Positions 23,651-53,384 of a stretch of DNA of 60,000 nucleotides are shown here, piece by piece (within the stretch, counting starts at the first letter, position 1; each line of letters starts with the position of its first letter). Below the pieces are notes generated by a model that was not told the DNA's origin, did no database searches, and saw only the letters and a program-made list of their open reading frames with translations. The position numbers and the translations under genes are program-made. This DNA is from Mobula hypostoma (lineage: Eukaryota), in NCBI RefSeq assembly GCF_963921235.1, contig NC_086108.1:60452001-60512000 (forward strand), in the 5' to 3' direction.

Positions 23651-24196
23651 GTGTTACAATTCAATAGGTTTTAAGATGAAAGAAAACTCTTACCTATTGA
23701 TGCATTGAATTACTTTTGGTGGATCCTATGTATATAGGATTATGAAGACATGTAGCCCTCTTTTATTATCATTTATTAATGCATGCATTAAGAAATAAAC
23801 ATTATTTCCTCCGGTATATTTTGTTTGTAAACAACTACTTTTCTGGACAAGCGATATCATGAATTCCAGATTAGGTGTATGCTGCTGTAAGTGACACATT
23901 GTTGATTCCAGCACAATAACAGTCATTATACTGTTTCTATGTCTCATGAAAATCATACATTAAGCCAATGAATCCTTTCAACTAAGCTTTTGGAATGCTC
24001 ACAACAGCTTTAGTGAGACTACAAAATGAGTGTAGGCATTATCAACAGTCTCTAGCACTGGCAAATTTTGTTACATTTTACCTAGAATGTTATGTTACTT
24101 CTGTTTAAACGTACCGTGGGTTAACAGTAAAGAATCATATTCTGGAAGAATTAGAGAACTTTTATTTACAGTAATAAACAAACACGTCTTAACTCA

Positions 24197-26865
24197 ACTC
24201 CTGGGCCCTCAGAGGCTCCACCTTCCTCTCACCCCAACCCTCCCCTCTCCACTGACACCCCCAGCCTCCCCCCTCCCCCCTCTGATCCCAGCTCTCATCC
24301 GTGCCGGGTCTCTACCATCCCCTCCGACCTTCAACTGTCGGAGGCAGAACGCTCTGTTCTCAGTAAGGGCCTCACGTTTGTCCCCCTTCGCCCACACCTC
24401 AGCGAGTTCCGTGTTCGCCATGATGCGGAACTTTTCTTCCGCCGTCCCCGTCTCCGAGCCTACTTCTTCAGCAAGGACTCTTCCACCCCCACCGATGACC
24501 CCTTCTCCCGTCTTCAACCCTCCTCTTCTTCATGGACACCCCGCTCTGGATCTCTTTATCACCAACTGCCGACGGGACATCAACCATCTCGACTTCACCG
24601 CACCTTGTCCCCATTCCAACCTCACTCCTTCGGAACGCTCTGCTCTCCACTCCCTCCGCACTAATCCTAACCTTATTATTAAACCCGCCGATAAGGGGGG
24701 TGCTGTTGTAGTCTGGCGTACTGACCTCTACTTTGCCGAGGCACAGCGACAACTCGCGGATACCTCCTCTTACTTACCCCTCGATCGTGACCCCACTAAG
24801 GAGCACCAGGCCATTGTCTCCCACACCATCACCGACTTCATCCGCTCAGGGGATCTCCCATCCACTGCTACCACCCGTATAGTTCCCACACCCCGCACTT
24901 CCCGTTTCTGCCTCCTACCCAAGATCCACAAACCTGCCTGTCCTGGCTGACCTATTGTCTCAGCTTGCTCCTGCCCCACCGAACTCGTTTCTGCATACCT
25001 CGACACGGTTTTATCCCCCCTTGTTCAATCCCTTCCTACCTATGTTCGTGACACTTCTCACGCTCTTAAACTTTTCGATGATTTTAAGTTCCCTGGCCCC
25101 CACCGCTTTATTTTCACCATGGATGTCCAGTCCCTATATACTTCCACCCCCATCAGGAAGGTCTCAAAGCTCTACGCTTCTTTTTGGATTCCAGACCTAA
25201 TCAGTTCCCCTCTACCACCACTCTGCTCCGTCTAGCGGAATTAGTCCTTACTCTTAATAATTTCTCCTTTGGCTCCTCCCACTTCCTCCAAACTAAAAGT
25301 GTAGCTATGGGCACCCGTATGGGTCCTAGCTATGCCTGCCTTTTTGTTGGGTTTGTGGAACAATCTATGTTCCGTGCCTATTCTGGTATCTGTCCCCCAC
25401 TTTTCCTTCGCTACATCGACGACTGCATTGGCGCTGCTTCCTGCACGCATGCAAAACTTGTTGACCTTATTAACTTTGCCTCCAACTTTCACCCTGCCCT
25501 CAAGTTTACCTGGTCCATTTCCGACACCTCCCTCCCCTTTCTAGATCTTTCTGTCTCTGTCTCTGGAGACAGCTTATCCACTGATGTCTACTATAAGCCT
25601 ACTGACTCTCACAGCTATCTGGACTATTCCTCTTCTCACCCTGTCTCTTGCAAAAACGCCATCCCCTTCTCGCAATTCCTCCGTCTCCGCCGCATCTGCT
25701 CTCAGGATGAGGCTTTTCATTCTAGGACGAGGGAGATGTCTTCATTTTTTAAAGAAAGGGGCTTCCCTTCCTCCACTATCAACTCTGCTCTTAAACGCAT
25801 CTCCCCCATTTCACGTACATCTGCTCTCACTCCATCCTACCGCCACCCCACTAGGAATAGGGTTCCCCTGGTCCTCACCTACCACCCCACCAGCCTCCGG
25901 GTCCAACATATTATTCTCCGTAACTTCCGCCACCTCCAACGGGATCCCACCACTAAGCACATCTTTCCCTCCCCCCCCTGCATTCCGCAGGGATCGCTCC
26001 CTACGCAACTCCCTTGTCCATTCGTCCCCCCAATCCCTCCCCACTGATCTCCCTCCTGGCACTTATCCGTGTAAGCGGAACAAGTGCTACACATGCCCTT
26101 ACACTTACTCCCTTACCACCATTCAGGGCCCCAAACAGTCCTTCCAGGTGAGGCAACACTTCACCTGTGAGTCAACTGGGGTGATATACTGCGTCCGGTG
26201 CTCCCGATGTAGCCTTTTATATATTGGCGAGACCCGATGCAGACTGGGAGACTGCTTTGCTGAACATCTACGCTCTGTCCGCCAGAGAAAGCAGGATCTC
26301 CCAGTGGCCACACATTTTAATTCCACATCCCATTCCCATTCTGACATGTCTATCCACGGCCTCCTCTACTGTAAAGATGAAGCCACACTCAGGTTGGAGG
26401 AACAACACCTTATATTCCGTCTGGGTAGCCTCCAACCTGATGGCATGAACATCGACTTCTCTAACTTCTGCTAAGGCCCCACCTCCCCCTTGTACCCCAT
26501 CTATTACTTATTTTTATACACACATTCTTTCTCTCACTCTCCTTTTTCTCCCTCTGTCCCTCTGAATATACCTCTTGCCTATCCTCTGGGTCCCCCCCCT
26601 TGTCTTTCTTCCCGGACCTCCTGTCCCATGATCCTCTCGTATCCCCTTTTGCCTATCACCTGTCCAGCTCTTGGCTCTATCCCTCCCCCTCCTGTCTTCT
26701 CCTATCATTTTGGATCTCCCCCTCCCCCTCCTACTTTCAAATCCCTTACTCACTCTTCCTTCAGTTAGTCCTGACGAAGGGTCTCGGCCTGAAATGTCGA
26801 CTGCACCACTTCCTACAGATGCTGCCTGGCCTGCTGCGTTCACCAGCAACTTTGATGTGTGTTGC
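24197..26865 (+). mobile_element. Penelope-like retroelement (Neptune type), frameshifted RT plus GIY-YIG
   Basis: IKPADKGGAVVV, AMGTRMGPSYACLF, YIDD, CKRNKCYTC...HFTC linker, VIYC...YIGET, LQPDGMNIDF. Flanks cgtcttaactca / cgtcttaaccca. Inserted into an LTR. Confidence 0.95.
26767..26802 (+). ncRNA. Minimal hammerhead motif with one C>T change (GAAATGTC)
   Basis: AGTC CTGACGA AGG gtctcgg CCT GAAA TG TC GACT. Confidence 0.75.
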
Positions 26866-27360
26866 GTCTTAACCCAGCCATGTGCTGGAACATTCCGGCA
26901 ATCCCCCGCATGCTCAGTGCTCTGTCCAATCATGTACTGGCACATCATTGCACGTGATATCAGCACATCTTCTTTTCCATAAAAAGAAAAACAATTAACA
27001 ACATTAATCAAAACATATCTATATCAGATAACTGAAACTCTGAAGTTGGCTCTTTCTTAAAGCCTTTGCGATTCTTTCTTAACACCACTCCCTTCTCTGT
27101 TTGGACCATGTATGATCTGGTCTGTGTCCATGTGTTCCTTTTATCTTGTATCCTCACTTTGTCTCCTTGTCCTTCAACCAAACATCTCCTTAGATCAGTC
27201 AATTCATTTTCCACTTCCATTTGTAATGAAATATGAATCTTCTTTTCATAAATCTAATTCATTCATTATCTGTATAATCTCTTTCTTATGCTGAGACTTC
27301 GTAATTTCAATAATACTTCTCAATTCCTTCACTTGTGCTTTCACTTCTTCCTTATACTGT

Positions 27361-30300
27361 TGTTACGTACCCCGTAACTGGGTTGCCAAACCAGCAGAAA
27401 TGGACCACTTAGTTGGAGTCTGGATTACTGGAACTAAGAAAGTTTTATTAAAGAAATAAGTAACACAGTACTCTAATAGTAAGGATATAAATGCAACAGG
27501 TTAGCAATGATAAAATACACATGTACACAGAACTAGGATAATAGGATCAATCAAGCTCTATCACAGTCTAGGAGTAAAATGATCAGTCCCAAGTGACGCA
27601 GAGTTCAGTTCAGCTTAGTACAGTTCGCAGTAATGGCTGTGGTGCCGTTGGAGAGAGAGAGAGAGAGAGCGAATGATGATATGCAAATCGAATTCAGACA
27701 GACCTTGATGTTCCTCCGCAGTTAGTTTTTGGGCGAGCCCTTTTCTGAGGTCACCGACTGTGACCCCTCCATTCTGGATACGATCGTCCTTCCACGGTGA
27801 ACCCGGCACCCAGGCAAGGGCGGACACACACACCAGGTTCCCGCCGATCGTACCTTTTCACCCTGTGCGTCTATAGTCGGTCCCGCGACCAGACCTCCAA
27901 AACTTCTACCAACTTGTGGGGGCATACTGCACTTCCAGGGTCTCGTTATCTCGTGATCTCGTGGTGTCTGTCTTGCCTTAGCGAACTTGTTCCTTTTATC
28001 CCCCTGCTGGGGTATTGCCTGTCCATCAAACTTCAAACAGTTCAGGTTCAAAGCAACCGGTCTGTCAATACTCAGAACTGTGTCTCTTTTCGTTAATCTC
28101 TCTCCTCTCTCATTAACATTTGGAATGTTTCTCTCTTTGTCTCTCTTATCAACATCAATCTTCTGATAACTTGGTCTTTTGTCACACCCCTATCCTTCAA
28201 AGGATTTTTACCGGGTTAAAAATTATAGGCATGAATACATTATTAGATACACACAAATATACATGGTCATCAGCTATTTGGCTAATACCGAGAACTTTAA
28301 ATTATCAACACCTTGACAGGCAGTCAACAATCACTTTTCCATTCCTTTTATAGGTGTTATTTTAATAATCCTCTAAGACCAGGCTCCAATTTAGCAAACT
28401 TCATAGTGGCCAAAAACACTAATGAGTTGTGATCAGTGTAACTTCTCAGTGGTTTCCGCCCCGGACAGAGGTAACAAGGGTCGGCCCACACCAACTTCGC
28501 ATTCTTTTGCAGGAGCTTAGTAAGAGGGAGGGTAATATCCGCAAAGTTTTTGCAAAACTTCCGATAGTACCCCACCATCTCCAAGAACCTTCTCAGGGCT
28601 CTCTTGTCTGTCGGGGTGGGGACTTCAGAGATAGCCCGCACCTTAGCCTGCATCGGTGCCAGCTGCCCCTATCTTCCCACAAATCCCAGATAAGTGATCT
28701 TTCCATGGCTGAATTCACTTTTTGCGAGGTTCACTGTCAGGTTGGCTTCGGACAGCCGTTTAAACAGCTCCTCTACCGCCACAATGTGCTCCTCCCACGT
28801 GTCACTCCAGACCACTAAATCGTCAACATACGCTTCTGCGTTCTTTAGCCCTTTTGTCACTGAATTAATCATCCTATAGGGGTGTTGCTCACTAGGCTGA
28901 CCTGGTGTGACAACAACACCATGTCCCGGCTCTTTGCATCGCCTCGGGACATCCGGACATAGGAGTGCGTGCAGTTTAATTAGCTGTCTTAGTGGGTTGC
29001 TCTGTTTGGGGGTTAAGGGAGAGACCTTTTCAGCAAAGCTGGCCAAAACAACAGACTTCTCTCATCTGGTCGGCGCCATACTTATCTTTTCGCAATGGGT
29101 TTTCCCCTTATCAGGTGGCACCCTAGCCTCATTAATTTTCGTGATAACACCGACTAGGTCTGTTCGCCTATCGTGGCAAGCTGTTAGCATATCAAAAGCC
29201 TGTAACTGTGTCAGCTCACGTCTACAATAGTCAATACCATCCTTCCTCCTGTGCGGCCAGTAAAACTCTTTCATGATTCTACCGACTGTTTTCCTCACCC
29301 CAAAATGTCCACCAAGGGGTGTCTTCTGGGCCAGGTTAAGAATCTCATCCCCATAAATTTTTGGCACCACCCCCCATTCCTCATCTGCGGGCACGGTACT
29401 TGGTCTCCATTTCCTCCTTAGTACTCTCTCCTTCACATAATAGCCCACTGGCTCCCTTTTTAATTCTGCTTCAGAGAGAGCTGTCTCTGCCAAAACCATC
29501 AGCTCCTCGTCTTGTTCCTGTGCCTGTACAAATTCCTTCCTGCCTAATGATAAATATACCTTAATTTCTATTTCACTACGCCCCTTCTTTTCATCTTCTA
29601 ACCCCTCCTGGTACAAGGCTGGTAAAAACGTCTCAGCTAAATCTATATTAGCCTCGGCAGCCTTTCTGGATATGCGCCGAGTCACTGCGCAAACGGGATA
29701 AACCTGTGAGTCCATGGGCGGGGCCTCAGTCCTGGCAGGTTGACTTGTCAATCTTACTGCTGGGTACACCTCTCCGCCCGCGAGGTCATTACCAAGAAAG
29801 ACCTCCACGTCTCCCATCGGTAGTTCGGGCTTCACCCCAATCATGACCGGTCCGGAGACCAAGTCGTTTTTTAGGTGTATCTGGAGCAAAGGTACTGCTT
29901 CAGTCCCTTTTCCAATGCCTTTTATCACCCTGACCTCCCCAGTCTGGGTCTCTGAACTAAAGTCTAACACACTCTTTAATATCAATGACTGACAAGCTCC
30001 AGTGTCTCTCCAGATCCGCATTGGAACTGGGTTTAACCCCTCCTTCACCGACACCAATCCGGGGGAGATAAACCTCTCGCTCCCTCCCTGAACTTTATCA
30101 GACCTCTTCTTCCCTAGCGGTTTGTTTGCCGGCTCAATACAGCCAGTTGGAACCGTCGTTTTCCCTTTCCCTGTCTCCTTCTTTGGGGCAAAGCACCTGG
30201 ACGCAAAGTGTCCAACTTTCCCACAATTATAGCATACGACCCCAGGAGACTTCCTACCAAACTGCTTCCGGTCTACCTTATCCTTCTCACTAGTCCCCGG

Positions 30301-30787: not shown

Positions 30788-32497
30788 GTCTGTGAGCAAT
30801 CCAAATTCGCATGTTCAACTACACTTTCTTAACTCAGTAACATACTGTTCAATTGTTTCAGCGGCTCTCTGAAGACATGTGAATAATTTATATCACTCAT
30901 ACAATAAATTACGCTTAGGTATACAAAATACTTCAACTCTGTCCATGATTGACTTTAAATTGAAATTATGTCCATCTCCAAAGACAAAATTTTTATATAC
31001 CTCTACTGCATCATTCCCGATTACATGGAGCAAAAGCGCAGCTTTGGTTTTTTCCGATTTTTCTTCATAATCGATCGCTGATAAATGCAGTTCAGACCGT
31101 TGCTTGAATATCCTCCAATTCTCAGCTACATTGCCAGTCAGCTGAAGTTTTGGTGGAGGTTGTAAACCTTCCATCTTACCGTTTACAGTTCGAACTTTGC
31201 TCTCCTCTTTTTTTTCGATTATCTTCGATTCTCGATTCTCCCGTATTATTCTTTCAGAACCACTTCTGACACCATGTTATGTTACTTCTGTTTAAACATA
31301 CCATAGGTTAACAGTAAAGAATCATCTTCTGGAAGAATTAGAGAACTTTTATTTACAGTAATAAACAAACACATCTTAACCCAGCCACGTGCTGGAACAT
31401 TCTGGCAATCCCACACATACTCAGTGCTCTGTCCAATCATGCACTGGCACATCATTGCAAGTGATATCACCACATCTTCCTTTCCTTGAAAAGAAAAATA
31501 ATTAACAACGATAATCAAAACACATCTATATCAGGTAACTGAAACTCTGAAGTTGGCTCTTCCTTAAAGCCTTTGCGATTCTCTCTTAACACCGCTCCCT
31601 CCTCTGTTTGGATCTCCTCTGTTATGATCTGGTCTGTGTCCATGTGTTCTTTTTATCTTGTATCCTCACTTTGTCTCCTTGTCCTTCAGACAAGTGTCTC
31701 CTTAGTCAGTCAATTCCCACCCTTGTTGTTCTTGCAGACTTTAATTTCATAGAGCTTTGTGAATCAAAGGGTTAGTTGTTGCAAATGACACACCTAGCTC
31801 TAATCTGGCTCTTCTTTATCATTTTCAAGGGGTTGGTTGGGCTGGGTGGATGTATCTTTATTCAGTGACTAAAGCTTCTTCCTCCGTTGATCATTTGCTG
31901 AATGTTCCTTCTGGGAAAGGAATGGTCTGAAAATTTGCATCTTGAAATGGTGGAAGAGCTATTTAAAGAATCGCGTTATCAGCTTTACTATAGTGGAAAA
32001 ATCAATTCCATTAAGAGACTTGATGAATTCCAAGAGGAATAACCAACAAGAGAAAAAAGATGCAAAAAGCATCATTAACTAAATGCTGGGCCTATGACTG
32101 ATAGGAATGAATTTCAATCATTGACCTTAACTTTAAGTGCATATAAATGTATGAGGCACTTACAGGTAATGAAAGTTAAATTAGGTGTGCCGATGCATTT
32201 CTAAATTTGCTGTACAACCTGATGGCTTATCAGGTCTAGTGTGGTCAAAGCAGCCCCTAAAACATCAAAAAATCAACATGTAGAAATCAGGGATTGTTCC
32301 TAAAGAAAGAATATTATGTTTTTTTTTCCAGCTTTTAAGTCGACATCATAAATATTATTAGTGAAGACTGGGGAATATTACCTCATTGTCATCTGGCCAG
32401 GAAGGTAGAGTCATGCATAAAAACTGTAACAGGAGTAATCAGTTGATATACACTTATTTGTCAGATTGACTGAGGTTATTTAATTATATTTCCACAG

Positions 32498-42969: not shown

Positions 42970-44815
42970 GGTCATTGGGTCTTGGGTCATTTGCGGTTGG
43001 GAAGTAATGCTTGAATTCTGTCGACAGCGAAGTTAGGTGATCGCACACCAGCTGTGAGAAGGACGGTGCAGCCCCAGTCTCTCCCAAAATCCCAGCTAAT
43101 GTTGGGAACATGTCAAATATGCCCCTGTCCACTCGCCGTCCCCACAGTTCCAGTTTGGCTTTGAAAACAGACACTTTATCTGCCAACTTGTCATTCTCCC
43201 CTGAAGTGACAAATTGAGTTCATTGAGCAGGTTGATGTCACACAGATAAGCGAGTTTTGCAATCCTCTCCTCGTCACTGAAGTGTGCTGCCAGTGGTGAC
43301 TTTTTTCCTGAAAAGAAATCTCTGCAGCTGCTCTCTTAACTCAAAAACCCTGGCCAGGGCTGTCCCCCTTGATAGCCACCTGACCAGTGTGTAAGAGAAG
43401 GTGTTTGTGCTCTGCATCCATTTCCTCGCAAAGCTGCTCAAACAGACGTGAGTTAGGGCTTTTGCTTTGATGTGATTGATGACTTCAACAACATCACTCA
43501 ATACGCTGTTAAGATCAGGTGACATTTTTTGGCTAGCCAGCATTTCCCTGTGTGTGACACAGTGTGTAGACTGGCATTCAGGAGCAACCCCTTTGACTTG
43601 GGTAGTGAAACCAGACAGCCGTCCAGTCATAGCTGCAGCCCAGTCTGTGCATATTCCAACACAGAATGACCAGTCCAGTTTGCCTGACATGTAGTCATTC
43701 AAAGACTTGAATAGTTCTGCCCCAGTTGTGTTAGTTGGCAGTGGCAGTACACACAACATATCCTCGTGTACATCGTCTTGAAATATATATCGCACATAAA
43801 CCAGCAGTATTGCCTTGTTGTCAACATCGGTAGACTCGTTGACCTGGATAGCATACCATGGTGACTCGTTAAGCCGTTCCAACAGCTGTGTTTTGATGTC
43901 CTCCGCTATGTCATTGATTCTCCTTGAAACTGTGGTAGCTGAGAGAGAAACTTGTGCCATCTTGTTAGCTGCAGCTTCTCCCAACAGTTCAAGGCACACG
44001 TCCTTGGCAGCAGGCAGAATCAATTCTTCACCAACAGTGAAAGGCTTCTTAGCCTTAGCAATACGGCTAGCCACTAAGTACGATGCTCTCAGAGCAGCAG
44101 CATTTGTGGAGGTAACACACGTAAAAGTTGCTGGTGAACGCAGCAGGCAGTCAGGACGAAGGGTCTCGACCCAAAACGTCGACTGTACCTCTTCCTAGAG
44201 ATGCTGCCTGGCCTGCTGCGTTCACCAGCAATTTTTATGTGTGTTGCTTGAAGTTCCAGCATCTGCAGATTTCCTCGTGTTTGCATTTGCGGAGGTGGTG
44301 ACTCTCAGCACTTGCTTCTGTCCCGCTTGCTCACGTTTTTTTCCGCTCAAAAGACTCATCGGGTTTGTCTTTAAGTGCAGGTGCTTGGACTCAAGGAGCC
44401 GAAGCAGTTTTGAGGGCTTCATTGCCTCATTAGACAGCTTGTCTCCACATATCACACACGGGGTGCTTGCGAGTCACCGGTCACATTAAAGCCATATTTT
44501 ATGTACAACTCGTCATATTTTCTGTTGAAGGAAGCTTTCTTTTATTTTTGCAGTCTTGGCCTCAGCTGTCTCTGCATTATCATCATCGATAGGCCTTTTA
44601 TGTCCCCTACCACCTCTTCCAAAGAAACTCTCAATAATGTTTGTTTTTTACTCATCGAGTAGTTGTAGGTTAATGACCAACTGATGACCTCGCATGTGTT
44701 CAAGTTCAACAGCGGGCGTGACAGGGAATGAGGAAAGGTGCAGCTGACTCATATCGTCAAATCATATCGTTTCCTCGCAGCCCGGTAGCACATGCTTTGC
44801 GGCCCGGTGGTTGGG
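42970..44815 (-). mobile_element. hAT Charlie/Buster-type transposon (ZBED5/SCAND3-like transposase), degraded
   Basis: CGDKLSNEAMKPSKLLR, RIAKAKKPFTVGEELILPAA, ESTDV, GICTD, THCVTHREML. Confidence 0.9.
44114..44282 (+). mobile_element. 169-bp Penelope-end insertion with a short inverted arm
   Basis: 44114-44148 is the reverse complement of 44211-44245 with 3 mismatches. TSD gcatttgYggaggt at 44100-44113 and 44283-44296. Interrupts the hAT transposase. Confidence 0.88.
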
Positions 44816-47498: not shown

Positions 47499-48129
47499 GA
47501 AATTTAATAAATAATTTAATAATAAATAAGGACTCTCTCGAGATTCTTTTTATACACTCTTGGAAGATTAACAACCAAGTAGACAGTTCTACGAAATGAT
47601 AAAGTTCGGGGTACTTTAGATTCCGCCTGCTCGTGAAGTGTGGAGGATCCAGAGCAGAAAAGGAAGGAAGCTGCTTTACTTACACTGGGTTGCAGATATG
47701 CGTTTGGAAAAAAGTTCAAAACTATGACAGCAAGTTTCTAATTTTGAACTTTCCCTGCTGCAACAAAATGTTTGCAGGTCAATAAAATAAAAATGATACA
47801 ACTTGCATATACAAAGTGCATAAGCACCACTCAAAGCACTGGATAATTGCCCATAGGCCTCTTGGAAATCTAGCTTCCTCTGCTACAACATCACAATAAA
47901 ACTGCTGCATAGAAAATAACCAATTCTTTAGCTACATTAGTCCATCCAAACTGATGCAACTTACTAGATGTTCTCCTCTCATCAATCAAACTACACCCAC
48001 TGTACATGCCAATATTAGAATAAAAAGAAGTGAACAACAGGAATTCTGCAGATGCTGGAAATTCAAGCAACACACATCAAAGTTGCTGGTGAACGCAGCA
48101 GGCCAGGCAGCATCTATAGGAAGAGGCGC

Positions 48130-48165
48130 AGTCGACGTTTCAGGCCGAGACCCTTCGTCAGGACT
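48130..48165 (-). ncRNA. Minimal type I hammerhead ribozyme motif (intact core)
   Basis: Exact reverse complement of 51204-51239. Confidence 0.85.
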
Positions 48166-51100
48166 AACTGAAGGAAGAGTGAGTAAGGGATTTGAAAGCT
48201 GGAGGGGGAGGGGGAGATGCAAAATGATAGGAGAAGACAGGAGGGGGAGGGATGGAGCCAAGAGCTGGACAGGTGATAGGCAGAAGGGGATACGAGAGGA
48301 TCATGGGACAGGAGGTCCGGGAAGAAAGACGGGGGGGGGGTGACCCAGAGGATGGGCAAGAGGTATATTCAGAGGGACAGAGGGAGAAAAAGGAGAGTGA
48401 GAGAAAGAATGTGTGCATAAAAAAGAGTAACAGATGGGGTACGAGGGGGAGGTGGGGCCTAGCGGAAGTTAGAGAAGTCAATGTTCATGCCATCAGGTTG
48501 GAGGCTACCCATACGGAATATAAGGTGTTGTTCCTCCAACCTGAGTGTGGCTTCATCTTTACAGTAGAGGAGGCCGTGGATAGACATGTCAGAATGGGAA
48601 TGGGATGTGGAATTAAAATGTGTGGCCACTGGGAGATCCTGCTTTCTCTGGCGGACAGAGCGTAGATGTTCAGCAAAGCGGTCTCCCAGTCTGCGTCGGG
48701 TCTCACCAATATATAAAAGGCCACATCGGGAGCACCGGACGCAGTATATCACCCCAGTCGACTCACAGGTGAAGTGATGCCTCACCTGGAAGGACTGTTT
48801 GGGGCCCTGAATGGTGGTAAGGGAGGAAGTGTAAGGGCATGTGTAGCACTTGTTCCGCTTACACGAATAAGTGCCAGGAGGGAGATCAGTGGGGAGGGAT
48901 GGGGGGGACGAATGGACAAGGGAGTTGTGTAGGGAGCGATCCCTGCGGAATGCAGAGAGAGGGGGGGAGGGGAAGATGTGCTTAGTGGTGGGATCCCGTT
49001 GGAGGTGGCGGAAGTTACGGAGAATAATATGTTGGACCCGGAGGCTGGTGGGGTGGTAGGTGAGGACCAGGGGAACCCTATTCCTAGTGGGGTGGTGGGA
49101 GGATGGAGTGAGAGCAGATGTACGTGAGATGGGGGAGATGCGTTTAAGAGCAGAGTTGATAGTGGAGGAAGGGAAGCCCCTTTCTTTAAAAAATGAAGAC
49201 ATCTCCCTCGTCCTAGAATGAAAAGCCTCATCCTGAGAGCAGATGTGGCGGAGGCGGAGTAATTGCGAGAAGGTGATGGCGTTTTTGCAAGAGACAGGGT
49301 GAGAAGAGGAATAGTCCAGATAGCTGTGAGAGTCAGTAGGTTTATAGTAGACATCAGTGGATAAGCTGTCTCCAGAGACAGAGACAGAAAGATCTAGAAA
49401 GGGGAGGGAGGTGTCGGAAATGGACCAGGTAAACTTGAGGGCAGGGTGAAAGTTGGAGGCAAAGTTAATAAAGTCAACGAGTTCTGCATGCGTGCAGGAA
49501 GCAGCACCAATGCAGTCGTCGATGTAGCGAAGGAAAAGTGGGGGACAGATACCAGAATAGTCCCTATATACTTCCATCCCCCATCAGGAAGATCTCAAAG
49601 CTCTACGCTTCTTTTTGGATTCCAGACCTAATCAGTTCCCCTCTACCACCACTCTGCTCCGTCTAGCGGAATTAGTCCTTACTCTTAATAATTTCTCCTT
49701 TTGCTCCTCCCATTTCCTCCAAACTAAAGGTGTAGCTATGGGCACCCGTATGGGTCCTAGCTATGCCTGCCTTTTTGTTGGGTTTGTGGAACAATTTATG
49801 TTCCGTGCCTATTCTGGTATCTGTCCCCCACTTTTCCTTCGCTACATCGACGACTGCATTGGCGCTGCTTCCTGCACGCATGCAAAACTCGTTGACTTTA
49901 TTAACTTTGCCTCCAACTTTCACCCTGCCCTCAAGTTTACCTGGTCCATTTCCGACACCTCCCTCCCCTTTCTAGATCTTTCTGTCTCTGTCTCTGGAGA
50001 CAGCTTATCCACTGATGTCTACTATAAGCCTACTGACTCTCACAGCTATCTGGACTATTCCTCTTCTCACCCTGTCTCTTGCAAAAACGCCATCCCCTTC
50101 TCGCAATTCCTCCGCCTCCGCCGCATCTGCTCTCAGGATGAGGCTTTTCATTCTAGGACGAGGGAGATGTCTTCATTTTTTAAAGAAAGGGGCTTCCCTT
50201 CCTCCACTATCAACTCTGCTCTTAAACGCATCTCCCCCATCTCACGTACATCTGCACTCACTCCATCCTCCCACCACCCCACTAGGAATAGGGTTCCCCT
50301 GGTCCTCACCTACCACCCCACCAGCCTCCGGGTCCAACATATTATTCTCCGTAACTTCCGCCACCTCCAACGGGATCCCACCACTAAGCACATCTTCCCC
50401 TCCCCCCATCTCTCTGCTTTCCGCAGGGATCGCTCCCTACACAACTCTCTTGTCCATTCGTCCCCCCCATCCCTCCCCACTGATCTCCCTCCTGGCACTT
50501 ATCCGTGTAAGCGGAACAAGTGCTACACATGCCCTTACACTTCCTCCCTTACCACCATTCAGGGCCCCAAACAGTCCTTCCAGGTGAGGCATCACTTCAC
50601 CTGTGAGTCGACTGGGGTGATATACTGCGTCCAGTGCTCCCGATGTGGCCTTTTATATATTGGTGAGACCTTACGCAGACTGGGAGACCGCTTTGCTGAA
50701 CATCTACGCTCTGTCCGCCAGAGAAAGCAGGATCTCCCAGTGGCCACACATTTTAATTCCACATCCCATTCCCATTCTGACATGTCTATCCACGGCCTCC
50801 TCTACTGTAAAGATGAAGCCACACTCAGGTTGGAGGAACAACACCTTATATTCCGTATGGGTAGCCTCCAACCTGATGGCATGAACATTGACTTCTCTAA
50901 CTTCTGCTAGGCCCCACCTCCCCCTCGTACCCCATCTGTTACTCTTTTTTATGCACACATTCTTTCTCTCACTCTCCTTTTTCTCCCTCTGTCCCTCTGA
51001 ATATACCTCTTGCCCATCCTCTGGGTCACCCCCCCCCCGTCTTTCTTCCCGGACCTCCTGTCCCATGATCCTCTCGTATCCCCTTCTGCCTATCACCTGT

Positions 51101-51203
51101 CCAGCTCTCGGCTCTATCCCTCCCCCTCCTGTCTTCTCCTATCATTTTGCATCTCCCCCTCCCCCTCCAGCTTTCAAATCCCTTACTCACTCTTCCTTCA
51201 GTT

Positions 51204-51239
51204 AGTCCTGACGAAGGGTCTCGGCCTGAAACGTCGACT
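51204..51239 (+). ncRNA. Minimal type I hammerhead ribozyme motif in the Penelope 3' end (intact core)
   Basis: AGTC CTGACGA AGG gtctcgg CCT GAAA CG TC GACT: helix I AGTC/GACT, CUGANGA core, helix II AGG/CCT, GAAA, palindromic ACGT in place of helix III, UC cleavage site. Confidence 0.85.
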
Positions 51240-53384
51240 GCGCCTCTTCCTATAGATGCTGCCTGGCCTGCTGCGTTCACCAGCAACTTTGATGTGTGTT
51301 GCATAAGAAGAAGTGAATTGACAATCCCTATAATACTGTGTGAATACGAGTTGAGTAACACTTGGAGGGGCATTGAGAACTGGAAGGGGATGGAATGTAG
51401 ACTGAGTTTGAGACCTCACCATTTACCATCAGAGGTGTCTCATTGAATTATCAATGACTAAGTAGGCTTGTTCCTATAAAGCATAGCTTGTAGACTCGAC
51501 TGAGAACAGGTAGAAGAAAACCATTATGAGAGATCTGGTCATTCTCAGAAATTTAACTGTTGCAGATTCATCTTCAATATTGTAAGGGGAAACTACATCA
51601 TAATCCTTGTGGAGGCAAAGCTCATACTGAGAAAGCACTACATCATATCATATACGTGTACCACTACTACAGTAAACATAACTTCACAATAGACCTAACT
51701 TTTGTAATTTGAAACTGTAGATTATCAACAGTTACATGGTATATTTCACCACACCCTGTAATTCATGGCCTAGTCTATTCACATGTTATATTATCATCAG
51801 GTAAAGGTACCAACCTTTTCTTAAGGTGATGCATAGAGCCTGGTAGGTGTAGCATCAGACCTATATAAAAATAATGTGCCAACGAGGTGAAGCAGCAGCA
51901 CAAACATGCCAAATATAGCAGCCTCCCATCCGCCCAACAATCTCTTTGATCCTTTACCATCAGGCAGAAGGTACCACAGTACTAGGACAAGGACTGTTAG
52001 GATGGGAAGCAGCTTCCTCCCCCAGGCTGTGAGACTATGGAACTCCCTGCCACCAGCCAGGTCTCATCACATTATGAAGCACCAGCAGCGTTATACTGTT
52101 TTACCTTTTAACTCCTGTCATAAGTTCACCTTATTATTTGTTAATTTATTTGTATTAATATTACTTAATGTGTTGTGTGTGAGGGGAACGTTGGTCCAGG
52201 GTATTGTTGTTTCGTTTAGCGGCATACATGTATATGGTTGAATGACAATAAACTTGAACTTGAGAACAACACAGTAACTGGCCCATCCAGTCCATGCCAA
52301 TCTGATATTCTACCTAATTCCAGCTACCAGCAGCCACACCATATCTCTCCAAACCCCTCTCATCCACGTACCTACCCAAACTTCTCTTAAATTTTACAAT
52401 TAATCTTCCATCTACCATTTCTGCCCGCAATTCATTCCACACTCAAAGAGAAGTTTCCCTTCAGATTGCCCTTCAATATTTCATCTTTCACTCTAAACTT
52501 ATATGACCTTTAGTTCTAGTCTCATGCATTCACCCTATAATCAAAAGTAGCAACTAATAGAGTTTGACCATCCCACAATCATCAGACCTGATTAACACTC
52601 TGCAATCCTGTCGTATTTGATTATGTAGTGGTGGACAATTAAACAGGTAACTGACTAACATAAGGTAGTGGTGACACAATACATACTGTACTAAACTCCA
52701 GATAATGCAATGGCTAGAAGAGAAAAGAGGCTCATATCAGGGGAATGGATGTCAACTCAGGAAGATGAGAAGACAGATATGGAAAGTGTACCACCAGCCC
52801 AGTTGATTGCGAACAGCAAAGCTCGGGAACAAGCTTACAACCCAAGATCCCTCTGTACATCAGTGCCCTAAGTGGCCTGCCAATTTTCTTTATTTTCCTC
52901 TCGTACCGAACCTCCCAAAATATATATCTCACACTTGTCTGGATGAAGCTCCAGCTGCTATTTCTCCATCAAAATTTCCAACCAATCCATATCCTACTCT
53001 ATCTTTTTACAATCTTCGTCACTATCCACAACACACCAATTTACTTACTTACTTATTTAGAGATACAGCGTGGTACCAGACCTTCGAGAAGTGCCACCAG
53101 CAACCCACTGATTTAACTCCAGCCTGATCACAGGCAAATTTACAATGACCAATTAACCTACTAATCAGTGTCTGTCATCGGCAAACTTACTAATTAGTCC
53201 ACTTTCACTCAAATTATCAACATATATTACAAACAGTAGCTCAATTGTTCAACATCACTAACAATTTTGTATCCACATTACCAGCTCACTTTAACTTAAT
53301 CTTCTGGACCAGCTTGCCACAACATCTACTGCCCTATCTTCATTAATCATCTTCATTAATCATCTTCATCATCTCCACAAAACA

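What the first reader, a model, noticed from the sequence alone, without database searches (positions are those of the whole stretch)
27206..27357. LTR element appears to carry a captured SH3KBP1/CIN85 C-terminal coiled-coil sequence
Seen: on the minus strand, inside the 200-bp-LTR element and directly joined to its integrase-tail remnant, the sequence reads EEVKAQVKELRSIIEITKSQHKKEIIQIMNELD, then one extra T, then YEKKIHISLQMEVEN. The ORF track shows only the last residues. Knowledge (recalled, not searched): the vertebrate SH3KBP1/CIN85 C-terminus is [48 protein letters not shown], an ungapped match with about 29 of 48 identities by hand; this coiled coil is an oligomerisation domain. Inference: a host mRNA fragment (I recall this segment spanning introns in the host gene) was transduced into a non-autonomous LTR retrotransposon and may have amplified with it. 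Its link to the element's gag cannot be read, because the nested Gmr1-like insertion and a deletion removed the upstream junction.
Basis: partly seen in the sequence, partly recalled or inferred. Interest (0 to 1): 0.85.

Follow-up and report, generated by a model that had tools for sequence, protein, structure and literature searches.

The report
Ray retrotransposon fusing two host genes
This is a decayed copy of a crippled jumping gene in a ray that carries a spliced piece of the host gene CIN85 slotted in frame inside a spliced piece of a second host gene, RABEP1; the hybrid multiplied to over a hundred copies, and its parent and intermediate forms survive in the same genome, showing step by step how such elements shuffle protein domains.

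Summary
Confirmed, and richer than reported. Window 27209-27350 (-) is the SH3KBP1/CIN85 C-terminal coiled coil, 93.6% identical to the host exons and lacking two introns. It is not joined directly to the integrase tail: it sits in frame inside a spliced RABEP1 piece that replaced pol in a non-autonomous Gypsy element (LTR-gag-protease-RABEP1-CIN85-RABEP1-integrase tail-LTR, about 2.3 kb). The RABEP1-CIN85 junction occurs 146 times; 11 of 17 full-length copies have perfect 5-bp target duplications; stingray gene models show the same chimera. CIN85-only and RABEP1-only sister families and single-crossover intermediates share identical cargo-tail junctions, so the hybrid most likely arose by microhomology template switching between two cargo-bearing elements. 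Cargo decays neutrally after insertion, yet all 18 junction classes I read keep the gag frame, against a 38-54% chance rate, which suggests read-through translation was needed for copying. The mechanism is known (LTR-mediated retrocopies, Tan 2016). The scan noted other cargoes (SUDS3, RBM25, USP35, MYH16) on other DNA of this genome, but not these genes.

The parts
27209..27350 (-). Captured spliced SH3KBP1/CIN85 C-terminal coiled coil (ray protein aa 616-662). Pieces of three host exons: 27350-27286, 27285-27221, 27220-27209. Broken by a 1-nt insertion at 27251.
27351..27360 (-). Last 10 nt of the upstream RABEP1 piece. The rest, with the protease and the 3' part of gag (about 1,040 bp in sister copies), is missing here.
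27159..27215 (-). Downstream RABEP1 piece (exon 4, aa ~154-168); 27209-27215 is the 7-nt microhomology shared with CIN85
27008..27158 (-). Integrase C-terminal tail remnant to the stop codon, in frame with the RABEP1 piece. The label rests on recalled Gypsy integrase-tail motifs; Pfam gave no significant hit.
26867..26967 (-). First half of the 3' LTR, after a polypurine tract
24087..24196 (-). Second half of the 3' LTR, displaced by a Penelope-like insertion (24197-26866, with a ~9-bp duplication)
27361..28186 (-). Single surviving LTR (~826 bp) of the nested Gmr1-like element
   Evidence: similar LTR in L023
28187..30787 (-). Nested Gmr1-like internal region (SCAN, zinc knuckle, integrase zinc domain upstream of RT); its 5' end is deleted together with part of the host element
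30788..31174 (-). 5' part of the element's own gag
31275..31474 (-). 200-bp TG..CA LTR followed by the primer-binding site (31274-31260; tRNA-Leu type, recalled)
31475..31719 (-). 3' remnant of a second, tandem copy (RABEP1 tail, integrase tail, polypurine tract) that shares this LTR

Best explanation
A decayed copy of a non-autonomous Gypsy LTR retrotransposon family. Step 1: during reverse transcription in the particle, RT switched onto co-packaged spliced host mRNAs at short microhomologies and back. This gave family A (gag-PR-RT start-CIN85 aa ~539-667-integrase tail) and family B (the same with RABEP1 aa ~61-168). The product is shown; the switching is inferred. Step 2: A and B RNAs, and a second backbone subfamily, recombined by further switches at a GAAG(C/A)AGTG(G/A)AA-like motif present in both cargoes. 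This gave single-crossover forms (RABEP1-CIN85-tail) and the double-crossover form C of this window, where 47 CIN85 codons replace 4 RABEP1 codons. Products shown; order inferred. Step 3: the hybrid spread by integrase-mediated transposition with RT and integrase supplied in trans (spread shown; helper inferred). Copying favoured RNAs read in one frame from gag to a stop near the 3' LTR, for RNA stability or packaging by their own Gag (inferred), while the cargo's amino-acid sequence is a passenger. Step 4: copies decayed neutrally. This one gained a frameshift, a nested Gmr1-like element with a deletion, and a Penelope-like insertion (shown).
For: Intron loss: SH3KBP1 introns of 1,087 and 2,037 nt and a RABEP1 intron of 9,063 nt, with GT/AG ends in the host, are absent from copies. 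Rabaptin PF03528 E 1e-38 and aspartyl protease domains in sister copies. Junction microhomologies: 10/12 nt at RABEP1->CIN85, 7 nt at CIN85->RABEP1, 6 nt at RT->RABEP1. All 8 A copies plus L019 and L035 switch from CIN85 to the tail at the same point, and B and C copies share one RABEP1->tail point. Counts: 146, 222 and 25 junction-motif hits, each with 0 control hits. 11 of 17 full-length copies have perfect 5-bp TSDs and 4 more have one mismatch; LTR-LTR K2P median 0.092. C forms a star-like burst in the protease tree. Cargo changes are neutral: synonymous fraction 0.221 vs 0.237 simulated, 52 stops vs 46.6; 3 of 34 copies are free of stops and frameshifts. 8 of 8 backbone->RABEP1 junction classes are in frame, 18 of 18 classes overall by eye, against a null of 36-47% for backbone x cargo; only 8 of 35 small cargo indels keep frame. 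Differences between backbone groups fall mostly at third codon positions, 55 of 92.
Against: No autonomous helper was searched for, so trans-mobilisation is inferred. RABEP1 x CIN85 matches of 7 nt or more are in frame 7 of 7 times by sequence alone, so those junctions say little about selection. The window copy and L002 (378 kb away, no shared 3' flank) share the frameshift and 4 non-CpG substitutions; if that was retrotransposition rather than gene conversion, a frameshifted RNA was copied at least once. Third-position bias in gag/PR may date from autonomous ancestors. Only 66 loci were examined out of several hundred, about half chosen by a protein search. L063 has a small frameshift just upstream of its RT->CIN85 junction. 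Order of crossovers is inferred from shared junctions, not from a rooted test.
Confidence: 0.75

Rival explanations
1. The fused protein itself was selected: Gag (with or without protease) carrying host coiled coils from RABEP1 and CIN85 helped these defective elements multimerise or win packaging against the helper, so coiled-coil cassettes were swapped and stacked.
For: All 18 junction classes read are sense and in the gag frame. Variants that delete the protease and fuse RABEP1 straight to the Gag end amplified (6 and 5 sampled copies). Both cargoes are coiled coils. Unchecked scan notes list other rod-like cargoes such as MYH16.
Against: No purifying selection on cargo, even for changes shared by several copies (synonymous fraction 0.308 vs 0.284 +/- 0.039 simulated). 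Only 3 near-fixed cargo changes exist (2 synonymous), too few to test. Cargo boundaries vary freely. A frameshift within CIN85 is shared by two loci. GAA-rich coiled-coil codons also supply microhomology.
Confidence: 0.15
2. The CIN85 piece was captured a second time directly from host SH3KBP1 mRNA into a RABEP1-carrying element, independently of family A.
For: Type C retains only internal CIN85 sequence, 93-99% identical to host, which cannot by itself name the donor. Host CIN85 mRNA is abundant in a putative RNA run.
Against: Intermediate L019 has the same RABEP1->CIN85 junction as C and the same CIN85->tail junction as family A, where host mRNA would continue into its last codons and 3' UTR. 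Element RNAs with packaging signals are far likelier co-packaged partners (established retroelement biology).
Confidence: 0.1
3. An ordinary LINE-made processed pseudogene of SH3KBP1 that inserted into an LTR element, or an ordinary part of Gypsy pol.
For: The piece is spliced and lies inside a repeat.
Against: No poly(A), no TSD around the cargo, both ends internal to the mRNA with microhomology, pol replaced rather than interrupted, and 146 copies share one junction. 94-100% DNA identity to host exons rules out a native pol segment.
Confidence: 0.01

Closest known systems
LTR-mediated retrocopies of animals (Tan et al. 2016, PMC5131818; passages found by term, and section 7; supplements not read)
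   Same: Partial spliced mRNA replaces part of the element's ORFs; microsimilarity at switch points (median 6 bp there); chimeras of two or more parent genes; re-mobilisation as non-autonomous elements; examples in zebrafish, chicken and mouse.
   Different: The passages read describe young or single loci. Here there are 146+ copies of one two-gene junction, one gene nested in frame inside the other, both single-cargo parent families and crossover intermediates preserved, and transfer onto a second backbone (gag 73-78% identical).
Maize Bs1 (read through the review PMC13317346, passages)
   Same: LTR element carrying pieces of three host genes that form a hybrid ORF.
   Different: Bs1 is described as a transcribed and translated chimeric gene; here copies decay neutrally and expression is not shown.
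Template-switch chimeras between elements: Veju TRIM, BARE-2 (PMC13317346, passages)
   Same: Recombination between different co-packaged element RNAs.
   Different: There the exchanged parts are element or unknown DNA; here they are captured host coding cassettes.
Host-gene capture by Drosophila telomeric retrotransposons (PMC13534243, abstract only)
   Same: Retrotransposons carrying host gene fragments through amplification.
   Different: Those are LINEs that capture silencing genes to suppress them; RABEP1 and CIN85 are endocytic-trafficking genes (recalled) and no small-RNA data were available.

Membership tests
LTR-mediated retrocopy (Tan 2016) | Host sequence is spliced mRNA (introns lost) | tested here: met
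   Two SH3KBP1 introns absent in the window copy; one RABEP1 intron absent in sister copies
LTR-mediated retrocopy (Tan 2016) | Cargo replaces part of the element's ORFs between two LTRs | tested here: met
   17 two-LTR copies of 1.9-2.6 kb without RT/RNase H/integrase core
LTR-mediated retrocopy (Tan 2016) | Microsimilarity at switch points; no poly(A) or cargo TSD | tested here: met
   About 2-10 nt shared at the junctions viewed; no significance simulation run
LTR-mediated retrocopy (Tan 2016) | Co-transcription from the LTR | tested here: inconclusive
   Only contigs of runs whose RNA status is a guess; one low-depth contig (3.6) bridges CIN85-RABEP1-tail
Non-autonomous Gypsy/Ty3 element | TG..CA LTRs, PBS, PPT, 4-6-bp TSD, gag and protease remnants | tested here: met
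   the Gypsy label rests on the protease domains and recalled motifs, no RT tree was made
Non-autonomous Gypsy/Ty3 element | Autonomous partner with matching LTRs | not tested
   No search run
Domesticated chimeric gene (Bs1-like) | Purifying selection on the fused ORF at fixed loci | tested here: not met
   Neutral substitution spectrum; 3 of 34 copies free of stops and frameshifts in cargo. Not every copy was examined.
LINE-1-type processed pseudogene | 3' poly(A) and TSD flanking the cDNA | tested here: not met
   CIN85 piece ends before the host stop codon and runs into RABEP1 or element sequence

The most novel reading that the evidence does not exclude
Ray genomes hold a family of defective Gypsy elements under selection to keep one translated frame, which act as a long-lived in vivo domain-shuffling machine: they collect host coiled-coil cassettes, swap and nest them by element-to-element recombination, and may use them as Gag-attached oligomerisation modules to parasitise the helper's particles.
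Probability: 0.15. Interest if true: 0.85.

Novelty: new variant of a known kind. Interest (0 to 1): 0.58.

Why it matters
It gives a vertebrate case in which every stage of retrotransposon-driven exon shuffling is still readable: two single-gene captures, crossover intermediates, a nested two-gene product and its burst of spread. The frame bias makes testable the question of whether non-autonomous LTR elements need read-through translation in cis. In practice these copies are annotated as 'RABEP1-like' or uncharacterised genes in stingrays, and a retrocopy pipeline that drops repeat-masked or highly redundant candidates (VGP methods, PMC13320880) may miss them.

Tried and rejected
Pfam on the window's own two CIN85 peptides gave nothing significant; PDB and homologue searches did. 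Purifying selection on the cargo was tested and not found; a first uncorrected pN/pS of about 0.5 for shared changes vanished once transition and CpG bias were simulated. The third segment in type E copies was not identified: Atlas gave no hit and the representative search returned only 2 unrelated repeat proteins. Expression: no RNA holder listed; contigs cannot show transcription. In unlabelled, probably DNA runs of two coded organisms, contigs cover all 30 bins and two contigs of one run bridge the RABEP1-CIN85 junction. Four literature searches (listings only) showed no paper on RABEP1 or SH3KBP1 capture in rays, and the VGP preprint's main text has 0 mentions of either gene; supplements were not read. 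No tRNA genes in the window. The last two parts failed and were redone. No structure or complex prediction was run, since no binding claim is made.

Full report
Observation. The first peptide hits only the two human CIN85 coiled-coil structures in the PDB (E about 2e-6) and is 28/33 identical to ray SH3KBP1. The best protein relatives of both cargoes are from myliobatiform rays, so the host is inferred to be such a ray.

Host genes and intron loss. The host SH3KBP1 lies on G000:C18. Splice-site motifs gave one genome hit each. Its last three exons end at 80906641, span 80907729-80907792, and start at 80909830; the introns of 1,087 and 2,037 nt between them are absent from the window copy, which is 93.6% identical to the exons over 141 bases. 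The donor was therefore spliced RNA.

The family. The 155-nt segment has 433 first-look candidates; 40 were scored, at 90-95% identity apart from itself. In the 30 loci fetched, the segment lies within a 200-bp-LTR element, and copies without the window's nested insertion have about 1,040 bp between the gag break and the segment. That stretch encodes the end of Gag, an aspartyl protease and about 92 codons of RABEP1 (Pfam Rabaptin E 1e-38; 97% DNA identity to host exon 3; a 9,063-nt intron lost). After CIN85 come about 15 more RABEP1 codons and then the integrase tail. So 47 CIN85 codons stand in place of 4 RABEP1 codons. The window keeps 10 nt of RABEP1 before and 57 nt after the CIN85 piece. 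The rest was lost with the 5' end of a nested Gmr1-like element (integrase domain upstream of RT). The 3' LTR is split by a Penelope-like insertion, and a tandem remnant lies upstream.

Spread and age. The RABEP1-CIN85 junction motif occurs 146 times at up to 2 mismatches, control 0. Of 17 two-LTR copies, 11 have perfect 5-bp TSDs, 4 have one mismatch and 2 have more (my reading). LTR pairs differ by K2P 0.053-0.158, median 0.092; the window's pair by about 0.06. The 28 type C protease regions form a star. Predicted proteins from Hemitrygon akajei (P0001, P0034) and Hypanus sabinus (P0002) show the same chimeras. The hybrid thus probably predates the split from dasyatid stingrays, tens of millions of years ago (recalled timescale; horizontal transfer not excluded).

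Parents and intermediates. A search with ray SH3KBP1 returned 67 matches, nearly all intronless and covering about aa 520-668. The 8 fetched carry gag-PR-(RT start)-CIN85-tail with no RABEP1 (type A); the native CIN85 motif occurs 222 times including the host exon. Eleven fetched copies carry RABEP1 only (type B); the native RABEP1 motif occurs 25 times at 1 mismatch, including the host exon and 3 chimeric loci. Among 66 loci I classed 39 as C (2 truncated), 8 A, 11 B, 6 E (RABEP1-CIN85-unidentified third segment; 94 candidates), one D (L035) and one F (L019). Ten duplicate or overlapping loci, three host loci and the first host hit were dropped before counting. A, D and F leave CIN85 for the tail at the same point; B and C leave RABEP1 for the tail at the same point; C, E and F share one RABEP1-CIN85 point. 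One capture per gene followed by recombination between elements explains this most simply. The C/E/F backbone is a different subfamily from A/B (gag 73-79%, protease 87-89% identical; split supported 99/99, bootstrap not converged), so the cassette also changed backbone.

Mechanism of joining. RABEP1 and CIN85 share 10 of 12 bases at the 5' junction and 7 bases at the 3' junction, both at the same RABEP1 motif; RT and RABEP1 share 6. This fits the microsimilarity template-switch model of Tan et al. 2016 (PMC5131818, passages), which also reports multi-gene chimeras and re-mobilisation.

Selection. Relative to the host, cargo changes in 51 CIN85 and 48 RABEP1 copies are neutral: synonymous fraction 0.221 against 0.237 +/- 0.017 simulated, 52 stops against 46.6, and 3 of 34 copies with both pieces are free of stops and frameshifts. 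Only 8 of 35 small indels keep frame. In contrast, 8 of 8 backbone-to-RABEP1 junction classes read through in the gag frame (L021 left out because unrelated inserted DNA precedes its cargo, L010 and L014 not examined), as do 10 further classes read by eye. Chance microhomologies are in frame 36-47% of the time for backbone x cargo and 41-54% for RABEP1 x CIN85 at 3-6 nt, but 7 of 7 at 7 nt or more. For the 8 backbone junctions alone, 0.47^8 is about 0.002 (my arithmetic). Backbone-diagnostic sites are third-position-rich (55 of 92) whereas singletons are near even (243 of 632). I read this as selection for one translated frame during copying, not for the cargo protein. Against it, the window copy and L002 share the frameshift and four non-CpG substitutions without a shared 3' flank; L014 has an insertion at the same place without those substitutions.

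Expression was not shown.

Novelty. The mechanism is known. Four paper searches (listings only) and the VGP preprint's main text showed no report of this family; supplements were not read. Earlier unchecked notes of this scan describe the same kind of capture with SUDS3, RBM25, USP35, MYH16 and RNF213 elsewhere in this genome, and none with RABEP1 or CIN85. What this case adds is the nested two-gene product with its parents and intermediates, and the frame bias. Verdict: real, a new variant of a known kind, interest 0.58.

Noticed in passing
L017, L018, L026, L047, L050, L060; 94 candidates: Type E copies carry a third, unidentified ~60-codon lysine-rich segment in frame after CIN85, possibly a third captured host mRNA.
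   Followed up: partly
G000:C9:59594241-59594681 and 66 further matches: A larger CIN85-only family (at least ~220 copies) carries SH3KBP1 aa ~520-668, including the proline-rich stretch; at least three different 5' junctions.
   Followed up: partly
window 48067-51302: A 1,494-bp, 99% inverted repeat formed by two Penelope-like copies 248 nt apart, 94-98% identical to the Penelope-like insertion at 24197-26866.
   Followed up: no
window 31275-31719; L025, L028/L029: Tandem copies sharing an LTR recur in this family.
   Followed up: no
L023:2665-3137: A second family copy carries an LTR 86% identical to the window's nested Gmr1-like LTR, inserted in gag.
   Followed up: no
window 43274-44194 (-): A ZBED/hAT-like transposase fragment (recalled motif) interrupted by a Penelope end.
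   Followed up: no
G000:C2:30664721-30664834: Weak hit (58%) to the SH3KBP1 linker, perhaps the paralogue CD2AP.
   Followed up: no
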